Virus record (IMG/VR): IMGVR_UViG_3300012931_000036
Location: 1-41,364 of that record
Length of the DNA: 41,364 bases
Reading direction: 5' to 3' (one strand)
DNA from: a virus
Lineage: Duplodnaviria; Caudoviricetes
Of this stretch, positions 8,323 through 37,873 are shown in pieces. The number at the start of each line of letters is the position of its first letter. Position 1 is the stretch's first letter. The notes under the pieces are model-generated. The model was given only the letters and a program-made list of their open reading frames with translations. It was not told the DNA's origin and made no database searches. The position numbers and the translations under genes were made by a program.

Positions 8323-9300
8323 ATGAGTGAAATCATAACTTCTTCCACTGCTGCCACAGGCAATGCCGACGCTACAACTCAAACGGGTGGCTCTACGAGT
8401 TCGGTATCTGCGGCGGCTTTTACTTCGACGGCTTCAACTACTACGGCCACGACCAACACAAGCGGCGCGGTTGAGCCATGGCATAAGGACTGGCTGCATG
8501 CTGACGGCTCTGTGAACAACAAGGCGCTCGACCGCCTGCCCGATGACATCAAGCACATCGCTCCTTCGCTGGCCAATGCCCGCAACATCGAGGACGTGAT
8601 GCGCAAGATTTCAACGCTAAATCTGATGGCTGGAAAGAAAGGGCTCGCCCCGTTGCCCGCTGATGCCCCTGCTGACGCCGTAAAGGCCCGCAATGAGCTG
8701 ATGCGACAGATTAACGGCGTGCCCGAGAAAGCCGCCGATTACGGCATTACGCGGCCTGATAACGTGCCGCCAGAGATGTGGAACGATGGCTACGTCAACG
8801 GAGCGCTCGACATCATGCACAAGTTCAACGCCCCGCCCGAAATGGTGAAGGCGCTTGTTGCACACAACATGCAGACTACTCAAGGACAGCAGGCCCAGCA
8901 AGCCGAGGCCGAAAAGGCATTCTTCGCCGATCAGAATAAGGCGGCTGCTGCGATGTTCGTTAAAGACGGCATGTCGGCTGAGAAGGGCTTTGACCTTGCT
9001 GCGCGTACAGCCCGACAGCTCGGAATTGATCCTGATGCTGACCCAGAGTTCAAGAGCGCAAAGACGATCTACGCCTTTGCTAAAGTAGCTCAGATGATTG
9101 GAGAGCCAAAGCTCGTAACGGGTGAAGGTAAGAACTTGGCCGGTAGCGCTGACCCTGCGTCGCTAGCGCATGACGTGCGGACCAACAAGGCGAATCCGCT
9201 CTACGCCGAATATTACAACGGCAATAAGGCCGTAATCGCCAAAGTGCAAGGATGGGAATTTGAAGCGCGTGCGCTCAAGGCGAAGGCAGGTGCGCGATGA
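8323..9300 (+). CDS. Capsid scaffolding/assembly protein
   Basis: Thr/Ser-rich N-terminus, GVPEKA.DY motif, helical body, position between portal and capsid. Confidence 0.8.
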   Translation: MSEIITSSTAATGNADATTQTGGSTSSVSAAAFTSTASTTTATTNTSGAVEPWHKDWLHADGSVNNKALDRLPDDIKHIAPSLANARNIEDVMRKISTLNLMAGKKGLAPLPADAPADAVKARNELMRQINGVPEKAADYGITRPDNVPPEMWNDGYVNGALDIMHKFNAPPEMVKALVAHNMQTTQGQQAQQAEAEKAFFADQNKAAAAMFVKDGMSAEKGFDLAARTARQLGIDPDADPEFKSAKTIYAFAKVAQMIGEPKLVTGEGKNLAGSADPASLAHDVRTNKANPLYAEYYNGNKAVIAKVQGWEFEARALKAKAGAR

Positions 9301-9563
9301 TTAAGCCTCTACGCGACGTGATTTTTTTTACACCCATTGAACTGCAAGACAAGATCGGTGGCATCTACGTCACCGACACGACCAAGATGGAAAGGAATCA
9401 GCGATTCGTGAAGGCGCGTGTTGTGGCGGCTGGGCCTCAGTGCATCGCTAAGGTTGGCGATATGATTCTCGTAACTGAGTGGGCTGATACTAGCAAGATG
9501 CAGATTGACGGTTTGGAAGTCTGGAATAAACGTGAACGCGACATAGTTGGGATATGCACATGA
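9297..9563 (+). CDS. groES: GroES/Cpn10-like co-chaperonin
   Basis: IKPLRD, GGIY mobile loop, ARVVAAGP, KVGD.ILV and RERDIVG motifs. Confidence 0.88.
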   Translation: MIKPLRDVIFFTPIELQDKIGGIYVTDTTKMERNQRFVKARVVAAGPQCIAKVGDMILVTEWADTSKMQIDGLEVWNKRERDIVGICT

Positions 9564-10039
9564 TTACACAAAAAACACTTAAGGAGTGGGTTAATTATTA
9601 CCCACTGAGCGGTAATTTCTACTGGCTGAAAGGTAAGAATATTCACAAAATGGCCGGAAGCAAGAACTCACAGGGGTACTATAAAATACGCATTTGTGGT
9701 TCGTTAATACCAGCGCATAAACTGGCATGGCTTTATGTCACTGGTAAATGGCCTACAAATGAGATAGATCACAAAGACTGCGATCCATCCAATAATTGTT
9801 TCGATAATCTGAGAGAAGCTACGCACGCAGAAAATTGCAGGAATAGACGCAAGCGAAGCGATCTCACTTCGAGATTTAAGGGTGTATCTTGGAAAAAACG
9901 GAATAAGAAGTGGTGTGCTCAAATTAAGACATCCGGTAAAGTATACCATCTTGGGCTGTTCCATACGGAGGAGCTTGCGCATCAATCCTATCAGTCAAAA
10001 GCGATTCAGTTATTCAAGGAGTTCGCTCGCCTAGTGTGA
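9560..10039 (+). CDS. HNH homing endonuclease with AP2 domain
   Basis: AHKLAWLY, EIDHKD..PSNN..DNLREAT..EN and AP2 FKGVSW...KW.AQI....HLG.F. Confidence 0.92.
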   Translation: MITQKTLKEWVNYYPLSGNFYWLKGKNIHKMAGSKNSQGYYKIRICGSLIPAHKLAWLYVTGKWPTNEIDHKDCDPSNNCFDNLREATHAENCRNRRKRSDLTSRFKGVSWKKRNKKWCAQIKTSGKVYHLGLFHTEELAHQSYQSKAIQLFKEFARLV

Positions 10040-10949: not shown

Positions 10950-11132
10950 ATGGATAGCACGTCCAAATTCTTAGATGGAGACGATCTCGTGCTTTATCGA
11001 GACGGCCGAAAAATAGAAGGTGCGTATAAGTTCAGGTTAGCTATTTTCGGCCCATGCGCTGAGTCTCCTGATAGGAGAACGGTATTCGACCTCGATTTAT
11101 TTCAAGGCGAAGTACAAAGGGCTGTCAGCTAA
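10950..11132 (+). CDS. Small hypothetical protein
   Basis: ATG 5 nt after the previous stop; followed by a terminator. Confidence 0.5.
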   Translation: MDSTSKFLDGDDLVLYRDGRKIEGAYKFRLAIFGPCAESPDRRTVFDLDLFQGEVQRAVS

Positions 11133-11168: not shown

Positions 11169-11197
11169 GCCTGCATCTTAACCGGTGCAGGCTTTTT
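11169..11197 (+). terminator. Rho-independent terminator
   Basis: GCCTGCA-10 nt-TGCAGGC-TTTTT. Confidence 0.75.
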
Positions 11198-11235
11198 GTT
11201 GGTCAATTCCGGGCAAAGATGTAGGAATACGGTCA

Positions 11236-11950
11236 TAGCTCACCCATCCAAGGATGAGCTACGGTTGAATCAACTCCGTTCAAAGAGAGATGAGGTTTCC
11301 GGTATTGGAGCATGTCGTCGGGTGGTAACTTCATTCTTCCCTAGTGCTCCGGCTCACTGGTGATAGCGTTGTTGAGCGTGTGACTAGCTTCGGTTCTATG
11401 GCTCAGGACTGCCGCCATAGATTGCTCGCATCGTCGGGTCCTAACCGACCGGTACTTGTTATGGATGTTTCTCCACCTATTGCTAGGCCAAGCCTAACCG
11501 TATTTCTACGGAAAGTTGCGTGTCACGCTCAACAACGGCATCACGCAAAGTAATATTAAGCCTAGATGGTGGGCGATGGCATTGTGAGGAGAACAGCGGG
11601 AGTTTGTTTTCAACTCAGCATTTCCCTTGCGGGTCGGTAGCTACGCACTTGTTGCTGTTCAGTTGCGCCCCTCACAATGCCATCGACCTTGCCGCGAGGC
11701 GATCTAGGCACCGTAAATGAAGGCTCTATGGAGTTTATCCACGAAACAGATGTAACGCATAAGAGGGGTTATTTCCTCTATACTCCACAAGTGGGGGACT
11801 TAGATTTCTCTATGGTGCTTTAGTGTTAATCCTTACTAGAGATCATTAACCTGAATGGCAAATAAACTCCATAGAGCCTTCATTATCTGAATCTGTCACC
11901 GGGCTGTTTAGGCTCCGTTCGTTCTGTGTGCTCTATCCTGAGCGTTGGTC
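11236..11950. ncRNA. Putative large structured ncRNA or sRNA array with three long-stem-closed domains
   Basis: Perfect inverted repeats 11367-11380/11524-11537 (14 bp), 11574-11589/11670-11685 (16 bp) and 11716-11738/11862-11884 (23 bp), each enclosing several short hairpins. No convincing ORF; strand unresolved. Confidence 0.65.
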
Positions 11951-11953
11951 CAC

Positions 11954-12034
11954 AAAAAAACCGACGGGATGAGAAGCGTCGGTTTTAAGGCAGAATAACT
12001 CGCCGAATAACCAGCAAGTCTCATCCTGCTGTTG
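11954..12034 (-). promoter_or_regulatory. Two-hairpin attenuator with complementary loops, ending in an intrinsic terminator (copy 1)
   Basis: Minus strand CAGCA-GGATGAGA-CTTGCTG ... AAAACCGACG-CTTCTCATCC-CGTCGGTTTTTTT; homologous to 38540-38617. Confidence 0.75.
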
Positions 12035-12118: not shown

Positions 12119-12135
12119 GTGGGCGAGGCAGGTTA

Positions 12136-12213
12136 GGACACCCGGCGCAAGCCGATCCGGTAGCCCCCTCAGAATTATTGTTCTGAGTGCCGATCCGCAT
12201 AGCGGACACCCGG
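12136..12213 (+). promoter_or_regulatory. Structured 5' leader of the capsid gene
   Basis: GGACACCCGG twice, GCCGATCCG twice, a GCAA tetraloop and a CTCAGAAT/GTTCTGAG hairpin. Confidence 0.65.
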
Positions 12214-12255
12214 AGTCTCGAACGCTGAACAGTCACGTTTGTTATTCTTACTTCA

Positions 12256-13152
12256 ATGCCTATTCCAAATTTTCCGTCTCAATACGAGACAGCATTCTCG
12301 GATCATTTCTGGGAAATTCAGGCTCAGCAAAAGGATCATCGCCTTGCTGGCCTTTACGAAAGCGACACCATCTCGGGCAACCAGAAACGCTATTCGCAGT
12401 CCGGCTCTTCGACCTATGCCTTCCGCCAGAAAACGGCGCGTGTGCAGAAAACCGAATGGACCGATCTGCCTTTGGCTGATCGTTGGGTCCGTCCGCGTCC
12501 ATACGATCTATCGACCGTCATTGACGAGCAGGACAAAATCGCCCTCGGCTCTCTTGGCGATCCGCAAAGCACGATTGTAAAAAATCACGCTATCGCAGCC
12601 GCCCGTCTCAAGGATCAGATTCTCATCAACGCCGCGCTCGGCACCGCCTACACCGGCACTCAGGGCACTACTGCCACTACCTTCCTTGCTGCCAATCAGG
12701 TTGCGGTGAACCAGGGCGGCGGCGCTAACACCGGCATGACGCTGGCCAAACTCATTCTGGCCTCGTACTACATGGATCGTTACGACGTAGCCGACGATGA
12801 CCGCATTTTGGTTTATGCGTCCAAGCAGCTCAACAACATGCTGACCAACGTGGACCAGGTGAACAACGCCCTCTACAACAGCATTCAGGCGCTCAAGGAC
12901 GGTCGAATCAAAGACTTCATGGGCTTCAAGTTCATCCGTACCGAGCTGCTCCCGGTCGTGTCGAATGTCCGCACCTGTGTCGCCTACCAGAAGAGCTATT
13001 TGCTCCTCGGCCTCGGCGAAGACCAGAAAACGCACATCGACATTCTCCCTGAGAACTCGCACGCCACGCAAGTCCGCACGGTCTTCTTGGCCGATGCCAC
13101 CCGCATGGAGGAAAAGGGTTTCGTTTCCATCGCCTGCGATGAGAGCGTGTGA
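12256..13152 (+). CDS. Major capsid protein (BPP-1-like HK97 fold)
   Basis: 298 aa; AQQK..RL, IDEQDKI, A.AAAR.KD..LI.AA.G, ALKDG.I..FMGFKFI and A.RMEEKG.V.I.CDE; strong codon bias. Confidence 0.9.
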   Translation: MPIPNFPSQYETAFSDHFWEIQAQQKDHRLAGLYESDTISGNQKRYSQSGSSTYAFRQKTARVQKTEWTDLPLADRWVRPRPYDLSTVIDEQDKIALGSLGDPQSTIVKNHAIAAARLKDQILINAALGTAYTGTQGTTATTFLAANQVAVNQGGGANTGMTLAKLILASYYMDRYDVADDDRILVYASKQLNNMLTNVDQVNNALYNSIQALKDGRIKDFMGFKFIRTELLPVVSNVRTCVAYQKSYLLLGLGEDQKTHIDILPENSHATQVRTVFLADATRMEEKGFVSIACDESV

Positions 13153-29209: not shown

Positions 29210-30064
29210 TTAAGGTATTGGCATTTCCTGAATGTAGTCAGGAACGCTTATCGGCGTGATTTCATCGCTTGATCCTGGCCAAACGCCAGAGTCATAGCAC
29301 TGTTTCAGCCGTGCGAGATCGGACATGATGTGACGGCGAGCAACGTCTAGCGTGATTTCGTCGGGTTCCCTCACCTCAACTTGGTGCGGCTCCTCCTTTT
29401 CAATGACGACGAACAGGAATCGAGGGAATGGACCTCCCAGATTTGCCGCCTCTTGCGTGACGATGCGATAAAACGCAGCCTGTTTCCAGTAGTTGAACTT
29501 CAGGAATTGGCGGTTGAAGTTGCTCAGGTGGTCAATCGTCTTCACGTCTACAATGAGCGGCCTGCCGTACTTGTCTAGCGTGTCATCAAACCAGTCTAGG
29601 CGGCTCTGTATGTCGAAAGAGGCCATCTTGACCCTTGCGACTATTTCAGGCGTTCCTTTTTCAAACAGACGGGCGGCTACGGGCTTTGCACGGATCGCCT
29701 TCGTCATCTTCCACGCTAAGTCTAGGTCTTCTTCGGAGATTACGGACTTCCCTGCGTTTTTGCTGGCGAACGCTTCGGCGTCTGCCTTGCCTTGTTTCGT
29801 GCGGCGGTCGAATGAAGGCGACACACAGAATCTCTCTGCGAAGGCCGATTCACCTTCGAGCGTGAGGCAGTGAAAGGCTTCCCCGAAAGACATCGCCTCA
29901 GACTGGATGTTTTCCTTGGCGGCTTCTTTACTGATGTGTCTGCGGTAGTAGAGAAGCGGAAGGTTTGGCGCTGAGAAATCTGCCAGCCGATGGGAACTGA
30001 CGCCCTCGGTGGCGTGATATTTCGCGCTAGATTCGTTTCGGATTAGGCCGTATGCGGTGCTCAT
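29210..30064 (-). CDS. recE: RecE/exonuclease VIII-like PD-(D/E)XK nuclease (DUF3799-type)
   Basis: YHA..GVSS, FG.AFH..LE, DRRTK.GK, RLD, VDVKT, Y..QAAFY and FLFVVIEKE.P. Confidence 0.88.
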   Translation of the reverse strand: MSTAYGLIRNESSAKYHATEGVSSHRLADFSAPNLPLLYYRRHISKEAAKENIQSEAMSFGEAFHCLTLEGESAFAERFCVSPSFDRRTKQGKADAEAFASKNAGKSVISEEDLDLAWKMTKAIRAKPVAARLFEKGTPEIVARVKMASFDIQSRLDWFDDTLDKYGRPLIVDVKTIDHLSNFNRQFLKFNYWKQAAFYRIVTQEAANLGGPFPRFLFVVIEKEEPHQVEVREPDEITLDVARRHIMSDLARLKQCYDSGVWPGSSDEITPISVPDYIQEMPIP

Positions 30065-30774
30065 GATTTGGCCTTGCTTGCTTCGATGTCGGCGCGGATC
30101 TGTTCGTCACCTTGGAATAAATCTTCAGTGACAGGCAGTGTTTCCAGCTTTGGAGCGTCGAGCGCGGAAAGCCTTTCGACTGGCGCGGGCGGCGTAACGT
30201 TGCGCGGTTCAGGCGGAATATCCCGCGCCTCCTCAGAGGCCATGCAGCCCTTGAGGACGTCGCTAAATCCATCGCGCAAGGCCCAGCTACGGGCACGCAT
30301 CAAGAGCATGCGCTGAGGGTAGGAAGTCCATGGGCCAGCCTTACCCCACAATCCCGCTTTCCTTGCGTCATCAATTGAGAACGTGCGGATAATCGGCTCA
30401 GAGTTACCGCGCCGTTTCACCGTCACGCGAGCGAAGGTAGGCTGAATATCGTCCTTGTAGTCTTCGAGGAGGCCGGACGCGTCAACGATTGCCTTCATGG
30501 CATCGCCCCAAATCGAGGGACGGCCATTGATGACAGCGATTGAACTAAGTGCGGTCATTGGAGGAAGGCCAAGTTCTGCACCGAACTGCATGGCGACTAG
30601 AACGGCCTGAGGCGTTTTGAAATCCTTTGGAGCCCAGCCGCCATCAATTACGGCTTTAGCGAAGATCAGCGCTTGCTCCATGGTCTGGAGCGCTACGCCG
30701 TTTTGGCCAAAGTGCATTAGTGACGATTGTTTGGGTGCTCCAGCGATTGGGATGGTAGGCGTTTCGTTATTCAT
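30061..30774 (-). CDS. recT: RecT-like ssDNA annealing protein
   Basis: G.ELGL.PM.AL..I.VINGRPSIWGD, A.KAGLWGK.GPW..YP.RML..RA...ALRD.F.DVLKG; paired with RecE. Confidence 0.88.
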   Translation of the reverse strand: MNNETPTIPIAGAPKQSSLMHFGQNGVALQTMEQALIFAKAVIDGGWAPKDFKTPQAVLVAMQFGAELGLPPMTALSSIAVINGRPSIWGDAMKAIVDASGLLEDYKDDIQPTFARVTVKRRGNSEPIIRTFSIDDARKAGLWGKAGPWTSYPQRMLLMRARSWALRDGFSDVLKGCMASEEARDIPPEPRNVTPPAPVERLSALDAPKLETLPVTEDLFQGDEQIRADIEASKAKS

Positions 30775-34308: not shown

Positions 34309-34824
34309 ATGAAGAAGATCCCATTAACAAAAGGCAAGTTCGCCATTGTAGATGACGAAGACTACGACAGGCTAATGAAATATAAATGGCACGAATCGAA
34401 TGGCTACGCGATACGTGTAATTAAACGTAAACCAAGAAAGAATGGTAAAAAGTCCAAATCTTTTTTGATGCATCGTGTAATAATGAAAGCTAGACGCGGG
34501 CAGTTTATCGATCATAAAAACATAGATAAACTCGATAATAGAAAAGAAAACCTCAGATTCTGCACGCCCCAACAGAATGCGTTTAATTTTGATATTTCAC
34601 GGAATAATAAAACAGGATACAAGGGAGTGCATATGCAGCCCAACGGAACGTATATAGCGATAATATACGTAGATGGGAAGGCGCGACGCCTTGGGTTGTT
34701 TTCAACCGCAAAAGAAGCAGGGGAGGCATATGATAAAGTCGCGCTAAAACACTTCGGTGAGTTTGCTAGAACCAATGCAATGATTCACGCTAACCGAACA
34801 ATGAATAACCCGCAACACATATGA
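34309..34824 (+). CDS. HNH-AP2 homing endonuclease
   Basis: IPLTKGKFAIVDDEDY, MHRVIM, IDHKN.DKLDNRKENLR, GYKGV, LG.F.TA.EA..AYD and FGEFA. Confidence 0.93.
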   Translation: MKKIPLTKGKFAIVDDEDYDRLMKYKWHESNGYAIRVIKRKPRKNGKKSKSFLMHRVIMKARRGQFIDHKNIDKLDNRKENLRFCTPQQNAFNFDISRNNKTGYKGVHMQPNGTYIAIIYVDGKARRLGLFSTAKEAGEAYDKVALKHFGEFARTNAMIHANRTMNNPQHI

Positions 34825-36930: not shown

Positions 36931-37235
36931 CCTACGACATGTTCAGGCAAGTTTCTCCGGATAACGCACACTCGTATTATTCCGGCGAGCTTGCGAAGCA
37001 ATGCGCGCAATCGACGGACAAGGCCATAACTGACGCTCTAGGCAAACTTGGCATAGCGTTCGTGGACTATCATGCGTTGTCCAAGCGCATGACCTGCGAA
37101 ATCGACCCGCGCGACAATACCGAGACCTATACGCTCGACGGTGAGCCGATAATCAAATTCTGGCCGCTTGAGATCAAGACGGTGAACGAAGGTGCCAGCG
37201 TCAAGATAGTGGCCAGACGGAAATTTATCACATGA
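36927..37235 (+). CDS. Hypothetical protein
   Basis: ATGA-coupled start (MTYDMF). Confidence 0.65.
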   Translation: MTYDMFRQVSPDNAHSYYSGELAKQCAQSTDKAITDALGKLGIAFVDYHALSKRMTCEIDPRDNTETYTLDGEPIIKFWPLEIKTVNEGASVKIVARRKFIT

Positions 37236-37873
37236 GCACGAATCGCAAAGGAGCTTGGACGCCTAAAGGCAAAGGCCCGAACGGTCGCAACCTCTGCTAC
37301 TGCGGATGCGGTCGCGAAGTGCCGAAAGGATGCCGAACTACGTTCTCGCCGAAATGCTATTCTGACTGGTGTGCTAAATACGATCCAGCTACTCAAAGAA
37401 GGCTTGTTTATAAGCGCGATAAAGGAATTTGCGCAGCGTGCGGAGCCGATACCGAACAGCGAGCTAAAGAGGCTAGTGAAACAAAGCAGCTTATCCTTTG
37501 GCTAGCTAGGCGGCGCGCTGACGAATTATTCGCATGCGGAGAACTTCCAATGTACTCAGGGAGTACGCCACAGCAGAAAGCCTATGCTGAAGCCAGAAAG
37601 GCTGATGGCGAAAGGCCACACCCATACGATGCATACCGGTGGGCAGAGCATTGGACTAACGAGGAGATGCGCGAAAGGTTCGGCGAAGTTCGTGCGCACG
37701 ACGGCCACACATGGGAAGCAGACCACATTTTGCCCGTAATCGAGGGCGGCGGTGAGTGCGACCTGTCGAACCTCCGCACGCTCTGCTTAAAATGCCACCG
37801 GAAGGAAACGGCGGCACTGGCCAAGCGTCGCGCGGAAAAAAGAAAAACAGTGAAACAGCTTTCGTTATTATGA
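37232..37873 (+). CDS. Zn-binding HNH endonuclease with a helical insertion
   Basis: CYCGC, VYKRDKGICAACG and WEADHILPV.EGGG.C.L.NLRTLCLKCH. Confidence 0.9.
   Translation: MSTNRKGAWTPKGKGPNGRNLCYCGCGREVPKGCRTTFSPKCYSDWCAKYDPATQRRLVYKRDKGICAACGADTEQRAKEASETKQLILWLARRRADELFACGELPMYSGSTPQQKAYAEARKADGERPHPYDAYRWAEHWTNEEMRERFGEVRAHDGHTWEADHILPVIEGGGECDLSNLRTLCLKCHRKETAALAKRRAEKRKTVKQLSLL

What the first reader, a model, noticed from the sequence alone, without database searches (positions are those of the whole stretch)
11360..11884. Three tandem multi-hairpin domains, each clamped by a long perfect stem: candidate ncRNA array
Seen in sequence, in an otherwise gene-dense genome: domain 1 (11360-11544, 14-bp core stem), domain 2 (11560-11709, 8-bp, 16-bp and 7-bp nested stems) and domain 3 (11716-11884, 23-bp perfect stem) lie only 15 and 6 nt apart. 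They share no obvious sequence but have the same architecture, each enclosing several short hairpins, e.g. CTATGGC/GCCATAG, GTCGG/CCGAC, CCTA-ttgc-TAGG, CCGTA-tttc-TACGG, CCC-ttgc-GGG and AGAGG/CCTCT. Strand evidence is mixed: three loops read GNRA on the minus strand, while G-U pairs and a cUUCGg loop favour plus. Inference: either a large structured RNA or a polycistron cut at RNase III-like stems into 100-150-nt RNAs. The size and closing stems recall retron/RT-associated ncRNAs, so decoy or anti-defence RNAs are one hypothesis. No RT is encoded here.
Basis: partly seen in the sequence, partly recalled or inferred. Interest (0 to 1): 0.85.

Follow-up and report, generated by a model that had tools for sequence, protein, structure and literature searches.

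The report
Phage RNA frame with swappable modules
Three related uncultured phages share a near-identical non-coding frame whose two or three long stems each hold a different folded RNA module, so it is likely one antisense RNA that phages reload with ready-made small RNAs, possibly as decoys against host defences.

Summary
The three stems are real and far beyond chance, but they are not three free-standing RNAs. They are the slots of one element of about 720 nt (11205-11925) upstream of the capsid gene of a 41-kb podovirus. Two related phages (capsid 86% and 70% identical) keep the outer stems and linkers at 95-100% identity but carry other interiors: 7 unrelated modules in 8 filled slots. The window's module 1 sits in slot 2 of one relative, which lacks slot 3. 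Contig fragments from four further studies show more combinations. One relative's module is a hammerhead-in-pseudoknot unit that also stands alone in 22 other phage loci; another resembles the tRNA-like domain of YrlA Y RNAs. Conserved GNRA loops, compensated stems, a covarying kissing loop and the hammerhead point to the minus strand. No Rfam family matches (GOLLD and ROOL included); no RT, integrase or Tas protein was found. Best reading: a large antisense ncRNA whose fixed core carries exchangeable modules, swapped by recombination at the stem arms, likely as host-interfering decoys. Transcription, processing and function are untested; only three full copies were found.

The parts
11890..11923 (-). 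5' conserved core segment of the predicted RNA; its inner part is predicted to pair with the RNA's 3' end (P1)
   Evidence: 34/34 identical in window, L001, L002; P1b pair probability 0.59 and 0.94 in window and L001, 0.02 in L002
11716..11884 (-). Slot 3 (optional): 23-bp perfect stem holding module W3, which has a possible H-type pseudoknot
   Evidence: L001 has the same outer 13 bp with a hammerhead-pseudoknot module inside; L002 has only 4 nt here; the stem is homologous to the closing stem of the free-standing unit in L308; run X4 has W3 behind another slot-2 module
11676..11715 (-). Core linker 2: P2 5' strand (pairs with 11228-11233), P3 5' strand, small hairpin, slot-2 arm
   Evidence: 39/40 and 38/40 identical to L001, L002; P2 probability 0.87/0.86/0.43 on minus
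11571..11688 (-). Slot 2: stem of about 23 pairs holding module W2
   Evidence: Different interiors in L001 and L002; L002 holds the window's module 1 here (81% identity over 188 nt)
11527..11584 (-). Core linker 1, from slot-2 arm through P3 3' strand and a palindromic 8-mer (11551-11558) to slot-1 arm
   Evidence: 56/58 identical to both relatives; found with other stems on both sides in run X3
11360..11544 (-). Slot 1: stem of about 20 pairs holding module W1 (two GNRA hairpins, covarying kissing loop)
   Evidence: W1 also in slot 1 of L002-type frames in runs X6, X7
11205..11359 (-). 3' core domain: several conserved helices with compensatory changes; closes P2 and P1
   Evidence: 98% and 78% identical in L001, L002; 3 of 39 predicted pairs change on both sides in 3 sequences
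11954..12026 (-). Leader: intrinsic-terminator-like hairpin (11961-11982, U-run 11954-11960) whose loop is complementary to 12019-12026; predicted attenuator
   Evidence: L001/L002 have an unrelated leader with the same layout and a compensatory change (CTAGCGG/CCGCTAG vs CTAGCAG/CTGCTAG)
11169..11197 (+). Terminator-like hairpin ending the upstream late genes; left boundary
12256..13152 (+). Major capsid protein gene; right neighbour, transcribed away from the element
   Evidence: phrog_3437 E 2e-49
29210..30774 (-). Exonuclease VIII and RecT-like single-strand annealing genes; candidate swapping machinery (inferred)
   Evidence: the L002 phage has an Erf-like annealing protein instead

Best explanation
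The three domains are exchangeable modules held at the ends of long stems in a conserved non-coding core, which is likely transcribed from the minus strand as one RNA of about 720 nt and likely serves the phage as a reloadable carrier of decoy RNAs against host defences. Shown: a fixed core (95-100% identical) with 2-3 slots; unrelated interiors in close relatives; one module found in two different slots; one module family that also stands alone in unrelated phages. Inferred, about 0.8: one minus-strand RNA, made from a promoter divergent to the capsid promoter and read through an attenuator. Inferred, about 0.55: modules enter and move by annealing-protein (RecT/Erf) recombination at the related stem arms, which leaves a paired helix so the core fold survives. 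Inferred, about 0.35-0.4: the modules act on the host as mimics (a tRNA/Y-RNA shape, a self-cleaving RNA that would leave repair-substrate ends, unknown aptamer-like folds); the fast turnover of content in a constant frame is what an arms race would produce. Modules may work while attached or after RNase III release; the two are not exclusive.
For: Core linkers 27-28/28, 56/58, 38-39/40, 34/34 identical while flanking genes are 65-75% identical at DNA level. 7 unrelated interiors in 8 filled slots: local scores 14-21 for all pairs but W1/L002-slot 2 (140). New combinations in runs X3, X4, X6, X7 (X6 and X7 may be one campaign). L001 slot-3 module: type I hammerhead core on the minus strand, 22 other loci match it by BLAST (20 distinct), all with both pseudoknot stems; 14 of 29 consensus pairs covary in 6 sequences. 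L002 slot-1 module: YrlA match on the same strand, 22.7 bits, E 0.09. W1 GNRA loops kept through changes (GAAA/GUAA, GCAA/GAAA; GCGA with a compensated stem in X7) and kissing loop UUAGGAC:GUCCUGA vs UUGGAAC:AUUCCGA. Shared helices P2 and P3 form on minus in 3 of 3 phages, on plus in 1 of 3. L002's capsid is 79-84% identical to array-less phages and 65-70% to array-bearing ones, so the element moves sideways or is lost repeatedly. Precedents for RNA mimics: Racrs (PMC10651486, abstract), pseudo-ToxI (PMC12926258, passage).
Against: No transcript data. Only three full copies; two (window, L001) have 98% identical cores, so core covariation is thin. Strand evidence in the core is mixed: 8 wobble positions favour minus, 4 favour plus (not independent counts), a GNRA hairpin (GTA-GGAA-TAC) is conserved on plus, and the MFE is 4-9 kcal/mol lower on plus in all three. 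P1b is not predicted in L002. No canonical minus-strand promoter is shared, and a terminator lies just upstream. None of the window's own three modules was found free-standing or identified. No host target is known. The YrlA score is far below the 69-bit cut-off. The tree does not exclude a single origin (26% of bootstrap trees; the topology test did not finish).
Confidence: 0.5

Rival explanations
1. A polycistron of independent small RNAs: the core is only an expression and processing frame, and host RNase III cuts the stems to release 100-150-nt RNAs.
For: Outer helices of 18-35 pairs on minus match the two-turn, 22-bp ideal substrate (PMC3867540, passages). Free-standing hammerhead units carry their own closing helices of 7-24 pairs, and slot 3's stem came with such a unit.
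Against: RNase III reads little sequence, yet single-stranded linkers are 95-100% conserved and the 3' core has its own covarying helices.
Confidence: 0.2
2. A selfish mobile RNA element (intron- or retrozyme-like): the core is a catalytic or retro-mobile unit, and the modules are passengers that landed in tolerant helices.
For: Patchy distribution against the capsid tree; very high core conservation; a 9-nt direct repeat flanks the element in L001 and (8/9) L002; one passenger is a ribozyme.
Against: No group I/II or other Rfam match; intergenic position interrupts no gene; same site in all three phages; one copy per genome; no RT found; the window has only one copy of the 9-mer.
Confidence: 0.13
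3. A cis or antisense regulator of the late operon: the RNA, or its transcription, tunes capsid-gene expression, and module identity is unimportant.
For: Lies between a late terminator and the capsid leader; divergent promoter-like hexamers; attenuator-like leader.
Against: None of 171 other capsid loci has it; it overlaps no mRNA; modules keep tertiary-structure signatures under selection.
Confidence: 0.08
4. A DNA-level cassette or inversion platform (integron- or shufflon-like): the arms are recombination sites and RNA structure is secondary.
For: Slot-1 arms in all three phages and slot-2 arms in L002 read GTTGAGC/GCTCAAC, fitting the recalled integron core GTTRRRY/RYYYAAC; arms of slots 1 and 2 are related.
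Against: The motif is absent from slot 3 and from slot 2 of window and L001; no recombinase found; every module that can be oriented points the same way; no inversion joints in 8 runs laid (contigs drop rare variants); G-U wobbles and GNRA loops are RNA signatures.
Confidence: 0.06

Closest known systems
GOLLD (RF02032) and ROOL (RF03087) RNAs (PMC12286853; sections 6, 7 and passages read)
   Same: Large, ornate phage ncRNAs of unknown function; conserved parts around a variable linker that in GOLLD sometimes holds tRNAs; kissing loops; non-essential and patchy.
   Different: No model match. Here 2-3 defined stem-closed slots, each with a whole folded module, a core of only about 330 nt, no tRNA island. 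Cage formation untested.
YrlA Y RNAs (RF02553; PMC4201824, passages read) - for the L002 slot-1 module only
   Same: T arm, acceptor-like stem, D arm in permuted order inside a long terminal stem; GNCGAAG present.
   Different: 22.7 of 69 bits; GNCGAAG lies 3' of the tRNA domain, not near the 5' end; no Ro60 gene seen among the 16 L002-phage proteins scanned or the shared ones; embedded in a larger RNA.
Type I hammerhead ribozymes of prophages (PMC3088659, passages read) - for the L001 slot-3 module only
   Same: CUGANGA, GAAA, GUC triplet, stems I and III, two-pair stem II.
   Different: A-A at the 10.1-11.1 position, nested in a double-pseudoknot domain; no Rfam hammerhead match; cleavage untested.
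Phage RNA mimics: Racrs (PMC10651486, abstract), pseudo-ToxI (PMC12926258, passage)
   Same: Phage ncRNAs that imitate host RNAs to blunt defence; proposed role of the modules.
   Different: Those are short single mimics or repeats; no shared carrier, no sequence link, no target known here.
RNase III-processed phage polycistrons such as T7 early RNA (PMC3867540, passages read)
   Same: Stems of about two helical turns in a long transcript.
   Different: There the stems separate genes; here they enclose non-coding modules inside a conserved folded core.

Membership tests
GOLLD | Match to RF02032 (conserved 3' domain) | tested here: not met
   0 of 3 phages at E<=10; cmscan blank
ROOL | Match to RF03087 | tested here: not met
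   0 of 3 phages (the controls did not ring either, so that search alone is weak); cmscan blank
GOLLD/ROOL | Homo-oligomeric nanocage | not testable with these tools
   Needs cryo-EM or native gels; palindromic 8-mer at 11551-11558 is only a hint
Retron ncRNA (features recalled) | Adjacent reverse transcriptase gene | tested here: not met
   No RT among 70 window ORFs (PHROGs), 52 (Pfam), 20 (NCBIfam), or 16 of 53 listed L002-phage ORFs
Retron ncRNA (features recalled) | Terminal a1/a2 repeat around msr and one long msd hairpin | tested here: not met
   Terminal stems present, but interiors hold only helices of 9 bp or fewer
MITE (features recalled) | Several copies and target-site duplications | tested here: not met
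   One copy; no duplication beside any slot; stems shared while interiors differ
Integron cassettes (features recalled) | Integrase plus repeated attC sites with GTTRRRY/RYYYAAC cores | tested here: not met
   Core-like words in 4 of 8 slots only; linkers not repeated; no integrase
TIGR arrays (PMC12045711, passages) | Repeated units with two 8-12-nt spacers, next to a Nop-domain Tas gene | tested here: not met
   Units are 118-192 nt and unrepeated; no Nop domain hit
Group I/II introns, RNase P, tmRNA, tRNA | Covariance-model or ARAGORN match | tested here: not met
   large inserts could hide a divergent core
YrlA (L002 slot-1 module) | T, acceptor, D arms in permuted order | tested here: met
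   Alignment to model positions 28-81
YrlA (L002 slot-1 module) | GNCGAAG motif near the 5' end; score over cut-off; Ro60 gene within 4 kb | tested here: not met
   Motif lies 3' of the domain; 22.7 < 69 bits; neighbours are virion genes
Type I hammerhead (L001 slot-3 module) | CUGANGA / GAAA / UH core with stems I and III | tested here: met
   Descriptor hit with 7-pair stem I and 6-pair stem III; covariation in relatives
Type I hammerhead (L001 slot-3 module) | Self-cleavage | not testable with these tools
   A-A at 10.1-11.1 is non-canonical; a U-U mismatch there is reported in PMC3088659
RNase III substrate | Helix of 11-22 bp or more | tested here: met
   18-35 pairs in 8 of 8 slots; boxes and cleavage not tested
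Protein-coding gene (ORF 11344-11553) | Third-position substitution bias, in-frame indels | tested here: not met
   11/5/11 substitutions by codon position against 72/39/169 for the capsid gene; 1- and 2-nt indels. A homologous frame is open in L002, so a peptide is not fully excluded

The most novel reading that the evidence does not exclude
A natural RNA cassette holder: a folded (perhaps oligomeric or catalytic) core with standard stem sockets into which phages plug whole RNA domains taken from a shared pool, displaying several decoys at once; the RNA counterpart of anti-defence gene hotspots, whose contents would list the host RNA-binding defences under attack.
Probability: 0.3. Interest if true: 0.92.

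Novelty: categorically new. Interest (0 to 1): 0.8.

Why it matters
Large phage ncRNAs (GOLLD, ROOL) have no known function, and their variable linkers are unexplained. This element makes the question testable: a constant core, defined slots and natural swaps give ready controls. If the modules are decoys, each points to an unknown host RNA-binding or RNA-cleaving defence. The core would also be a natural scaffold for displaying folded RNAs. The slots already yielded an uncatalogued, widespread hammerhead-pseudoknot family.

Tried and rejected
Rfam on window, relatives and isolated modules: only the weak YrlA match. GenBank phages and plasmids: no match. 401 genomes of the phylum of G007: 1 hit, a chance match in a repeat protein gene. 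Exact linker scans of viral contigs: only L001 and L002 plus one chance hit. Gapped core pattern: 42 hits, 41 unrelated. Model R1 of the 3' core: 0 hits in 98 and in 97 loci. Free-standing W1: two pattern scans gave only L002 and chance hits. 50 related or hammerhead-bearing virus records: only 16-29-nt chance matches. rRNA mimicry, suggested by recalled words: not supported; 5 of 120 comparisons had 0 of 40 shuffles as high, on both strands, and the best-looking case had z 1.3. RF00163 gave no match. No RNA holder listed among 11 runs; this says nothing on expression. Run X8 showed no cover. HDV-like, group I, group II and RNase P layouts were checked by eye from recalled consensus and did not fit. 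The one-clade test did not finish. Host unknown: 11 of 14 genome hits were Verrucomicrobiota, but at only 32-36% capsid identity.

Full report
Setting. The window is a whole 41,364-bp virus record with terminal repeats. Its genes are those of a podovirus: terminase, portal, capsid, tail tube, RecT and exonuclease VIII; the capsid's nearest cultured relatives are HTVC010P-type and Ralstonia phages at 33-36%. The finding lies in a gap between a tail-fibre-like gene (ends 10944, followed by a 60-codon ORF to 11132) and the capsid gene (12256). No tRNA or Rfam family is found in the window.

Observation. The three long stems are the only perfect 12-bp-plus stems spaced 60-260 nt in the genome; shuffled genomes give 0-2. 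Folding is far beyond chance on both strands.

What relatives show. A capsid-gene search gave L001 (86%), L002 (70%) and L003 (66%). L001 and L002 match the window in short blocks only: the outer stem arms, the linkers between domains, a 150-nt block left of domain 1 and a 34-nt block right of domain 3. The interiors do not match. The blocks are 27-28/28, 56/58, 38-39/40 and 34/34 identical, while neighbouring genes of L002 are 65-75% identical at DNA level. Of 8 filled slots, 7 interiors are unrelated; the exception is the window's module 1, which sits in slot 2 of L002. L002 has 4 nt where slot 3 would be. L003 and 170 further capsid loci (redundant, some with little upstream DNA) lack the element and mostly have a 160-260-nt gap. 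L002's capsid is closer to array-less phages (79-84%) than to the other two carriers (65-70%); the tree needs two changes but does not exclude one origin.

Independent fragments. Contigs of 8 runs were laid on the region; X2 may be the source and X8 gave nothing. X4 has module W3 preceded by a different slot-2 end. X6 and X7 have W1 in slot 1 behind an L002-type core; in X7, 397 unshown letters follow, and linker 2 was not reported there, so I cannot say its core is whole. X3 has linker 1 with other stems on both sides. X4 and X9 carry variants of the 3' core. All are short, low-depth contigs.

What the modules are. None of the window's three modules could be named. W1 is a compact fold: two GNRA hairpins that stay GNRA through changes, a compensated 8-bp helix and a loop-loop pairing that covaries between window and L002; X7 adds a third GNRA variant with a compensated stem. 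An ORF across W1 lacks third-position bias and has 1- and 2-nt indels, though a homologous frame is open in L002. L001's slot-3 module holds a type I hammerhead core on the minus strand. A pattern scan gave 98 loci; 40 passed a loose stem test (L001's own and some chance hits included) and 22 others match the module by BLAST, L308 at 80% over 168 nt. All 22 have the two pseudoknot stems and their own closing helix of 7-24 pairs; 14 of 29 consensus pairs covary in a 6-sequence alignment. In 20 of these loci Rfam found only tRNAs nearby (5 loci) and no hammerhead, and none holds the core. The slot-3 stem itself is homologous to L308's closing stem, so slot 3 arrived with such a unit and the window's lineage holds another interior in it. 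L002's slot-1 module aligns weakly to YrlA in the permuted T-acceptor-D order; the GNCGAAG motif that PMC4201824 (passages) places near the 5' end lies 3' of the domain here.

Strand and unit. Minus is favoured by the hammerhead, the YrlA-like domain, the GNRA behaviour of W1, 8 against 4 wobble positions in core helices and by P2 and P3 forming on minus in all three phages but on plus only in the window. Against: plus has slightly lower energy in all three, a GNRA hairpin is conserved on plus, and the outermost helix is not predicted in L002. P2 joins 11715 to 11228 and so encloses slots 1 and 2 and the 3' core in one molecule. Upstream on minus lies a terminator whose loop is complementary to an earlier segment; L001 and L002 have an unrelated leader with the same layout and a compensatory change. 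I read this as an attenuator. No shared canonical promoter was found.

Mechanism. The arms of slots 1 and 2 are related, giving 15-20 nt of homology on each side; both complete phages encode single-strand annealing proteins. Recombination at the arms would move a module between slots or phages and keep the helix paired. No RT, integrase or transposase was found. Why carry modules? Near-total turnover of content between phages with 98% identical cores is what selection by changing host defences would give, and the two recognisable modules mimic or generate substrates of tRNA-cleaving and RNA-repair systems (inference; precedents in PMC10651486 abstract, PMC12926258 and PMC11455837 passages). 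This step is unproven, about 0.35-0.4. RNase III release fits the 18-35-pair helices (PMC3867540 passages) but does not explain the conserved linkers.

Novelty. GOLLD and ROOL are the nearest kind: phage RNAs with a variable linker that can hold tRNAs (PMC12286853, sections 6 and 7, passages). Neither model matches. Ten full-text searches showed no fixed core with stem-closed exchangeable RNA slots; the library lacks most subscription papers and I read no supplements, where motif catalogues could list the hammerhead unit or a module. PMC6765202, PMC3088659 and PMC12045711 were read as passages only. Earlier unreviewed notes of this scan describe similar modular RNAs in other phages, with no sequence look-alike to this one; they are leads, not support, but suggest the design recurs.

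Verdict. Real, larger than reported and of an undescribed design. Architecture well supported from three full and several partial copies; expression and function untested. Interest 0.8.

Noticed in passing
L001 3457-3640 (-); L308 728-908; 21 more loci among L255-L352: Uncatalogued phage RNA family: variant type I hammerhead (CUGANGA-AGCGNRAGCA-GAAAC) nested in a double pseudoknot with a closing stem; some copies beside tRNAs; a second subtype with other pseudoknot sequences (L263, L278, L285, L303).
   Followed up: partly
L263 78-750: Another tandem chain: four units closed by alternating copies of one arm (TTGATGGT/CCATCAA), holding tRNA-like halves with large inserts and one tRNA, then a hammerhead unit. 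Possibly the same design with other parts.
   Followed up: partly
L257 about 275-495: tRNA-like 5' and 3' halves separated by about 170 nt, just before the hammerhead unit (seen, not tested).
   Followed up: no
window 12130-12250 (+): Conserved structured leader of the capsid gene, shared with array-less relatives (74-90% local identity in 11 loci); separate from the finding, no Rfam match.
   Followed up: partly
window 10950-11132 (+): 60-codon ORF absent from L001 and from a minor contig in run X2; no family match.
   Followed up: partly
window 11305-11328 (+): A 7-codon TTG-to-TAA frame behind a purine-rich SD-like run keeps its length in window, L002 and run X4 but not its peptide; may be chance.
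   Followed up: no
L001 2944 and 3696; L002 3107 and 3704; window 11211: A 9-nt word (GGGCAAAGA) flanks the element on both sides in the relatives but only on one side in the window.
   Followed up: partly
window 11551-11558 and 11637-11644: Self-complementary 8-mers, one in the invariant linker and one in module W2; possible dimerisation sites.
   Followed up: no
window 9297-9563, 9554-10039, 34309-34824, 37232-37873: A GroES-like gene among the head genes and three HNH endonuclease genes.
   Followed up: no
L274, L275, L313, L317, L318, L323, L334: Canonical-looking type I hammerheads about 270-580 nt from the pattern hit in these viral loci.
   Followed up: no
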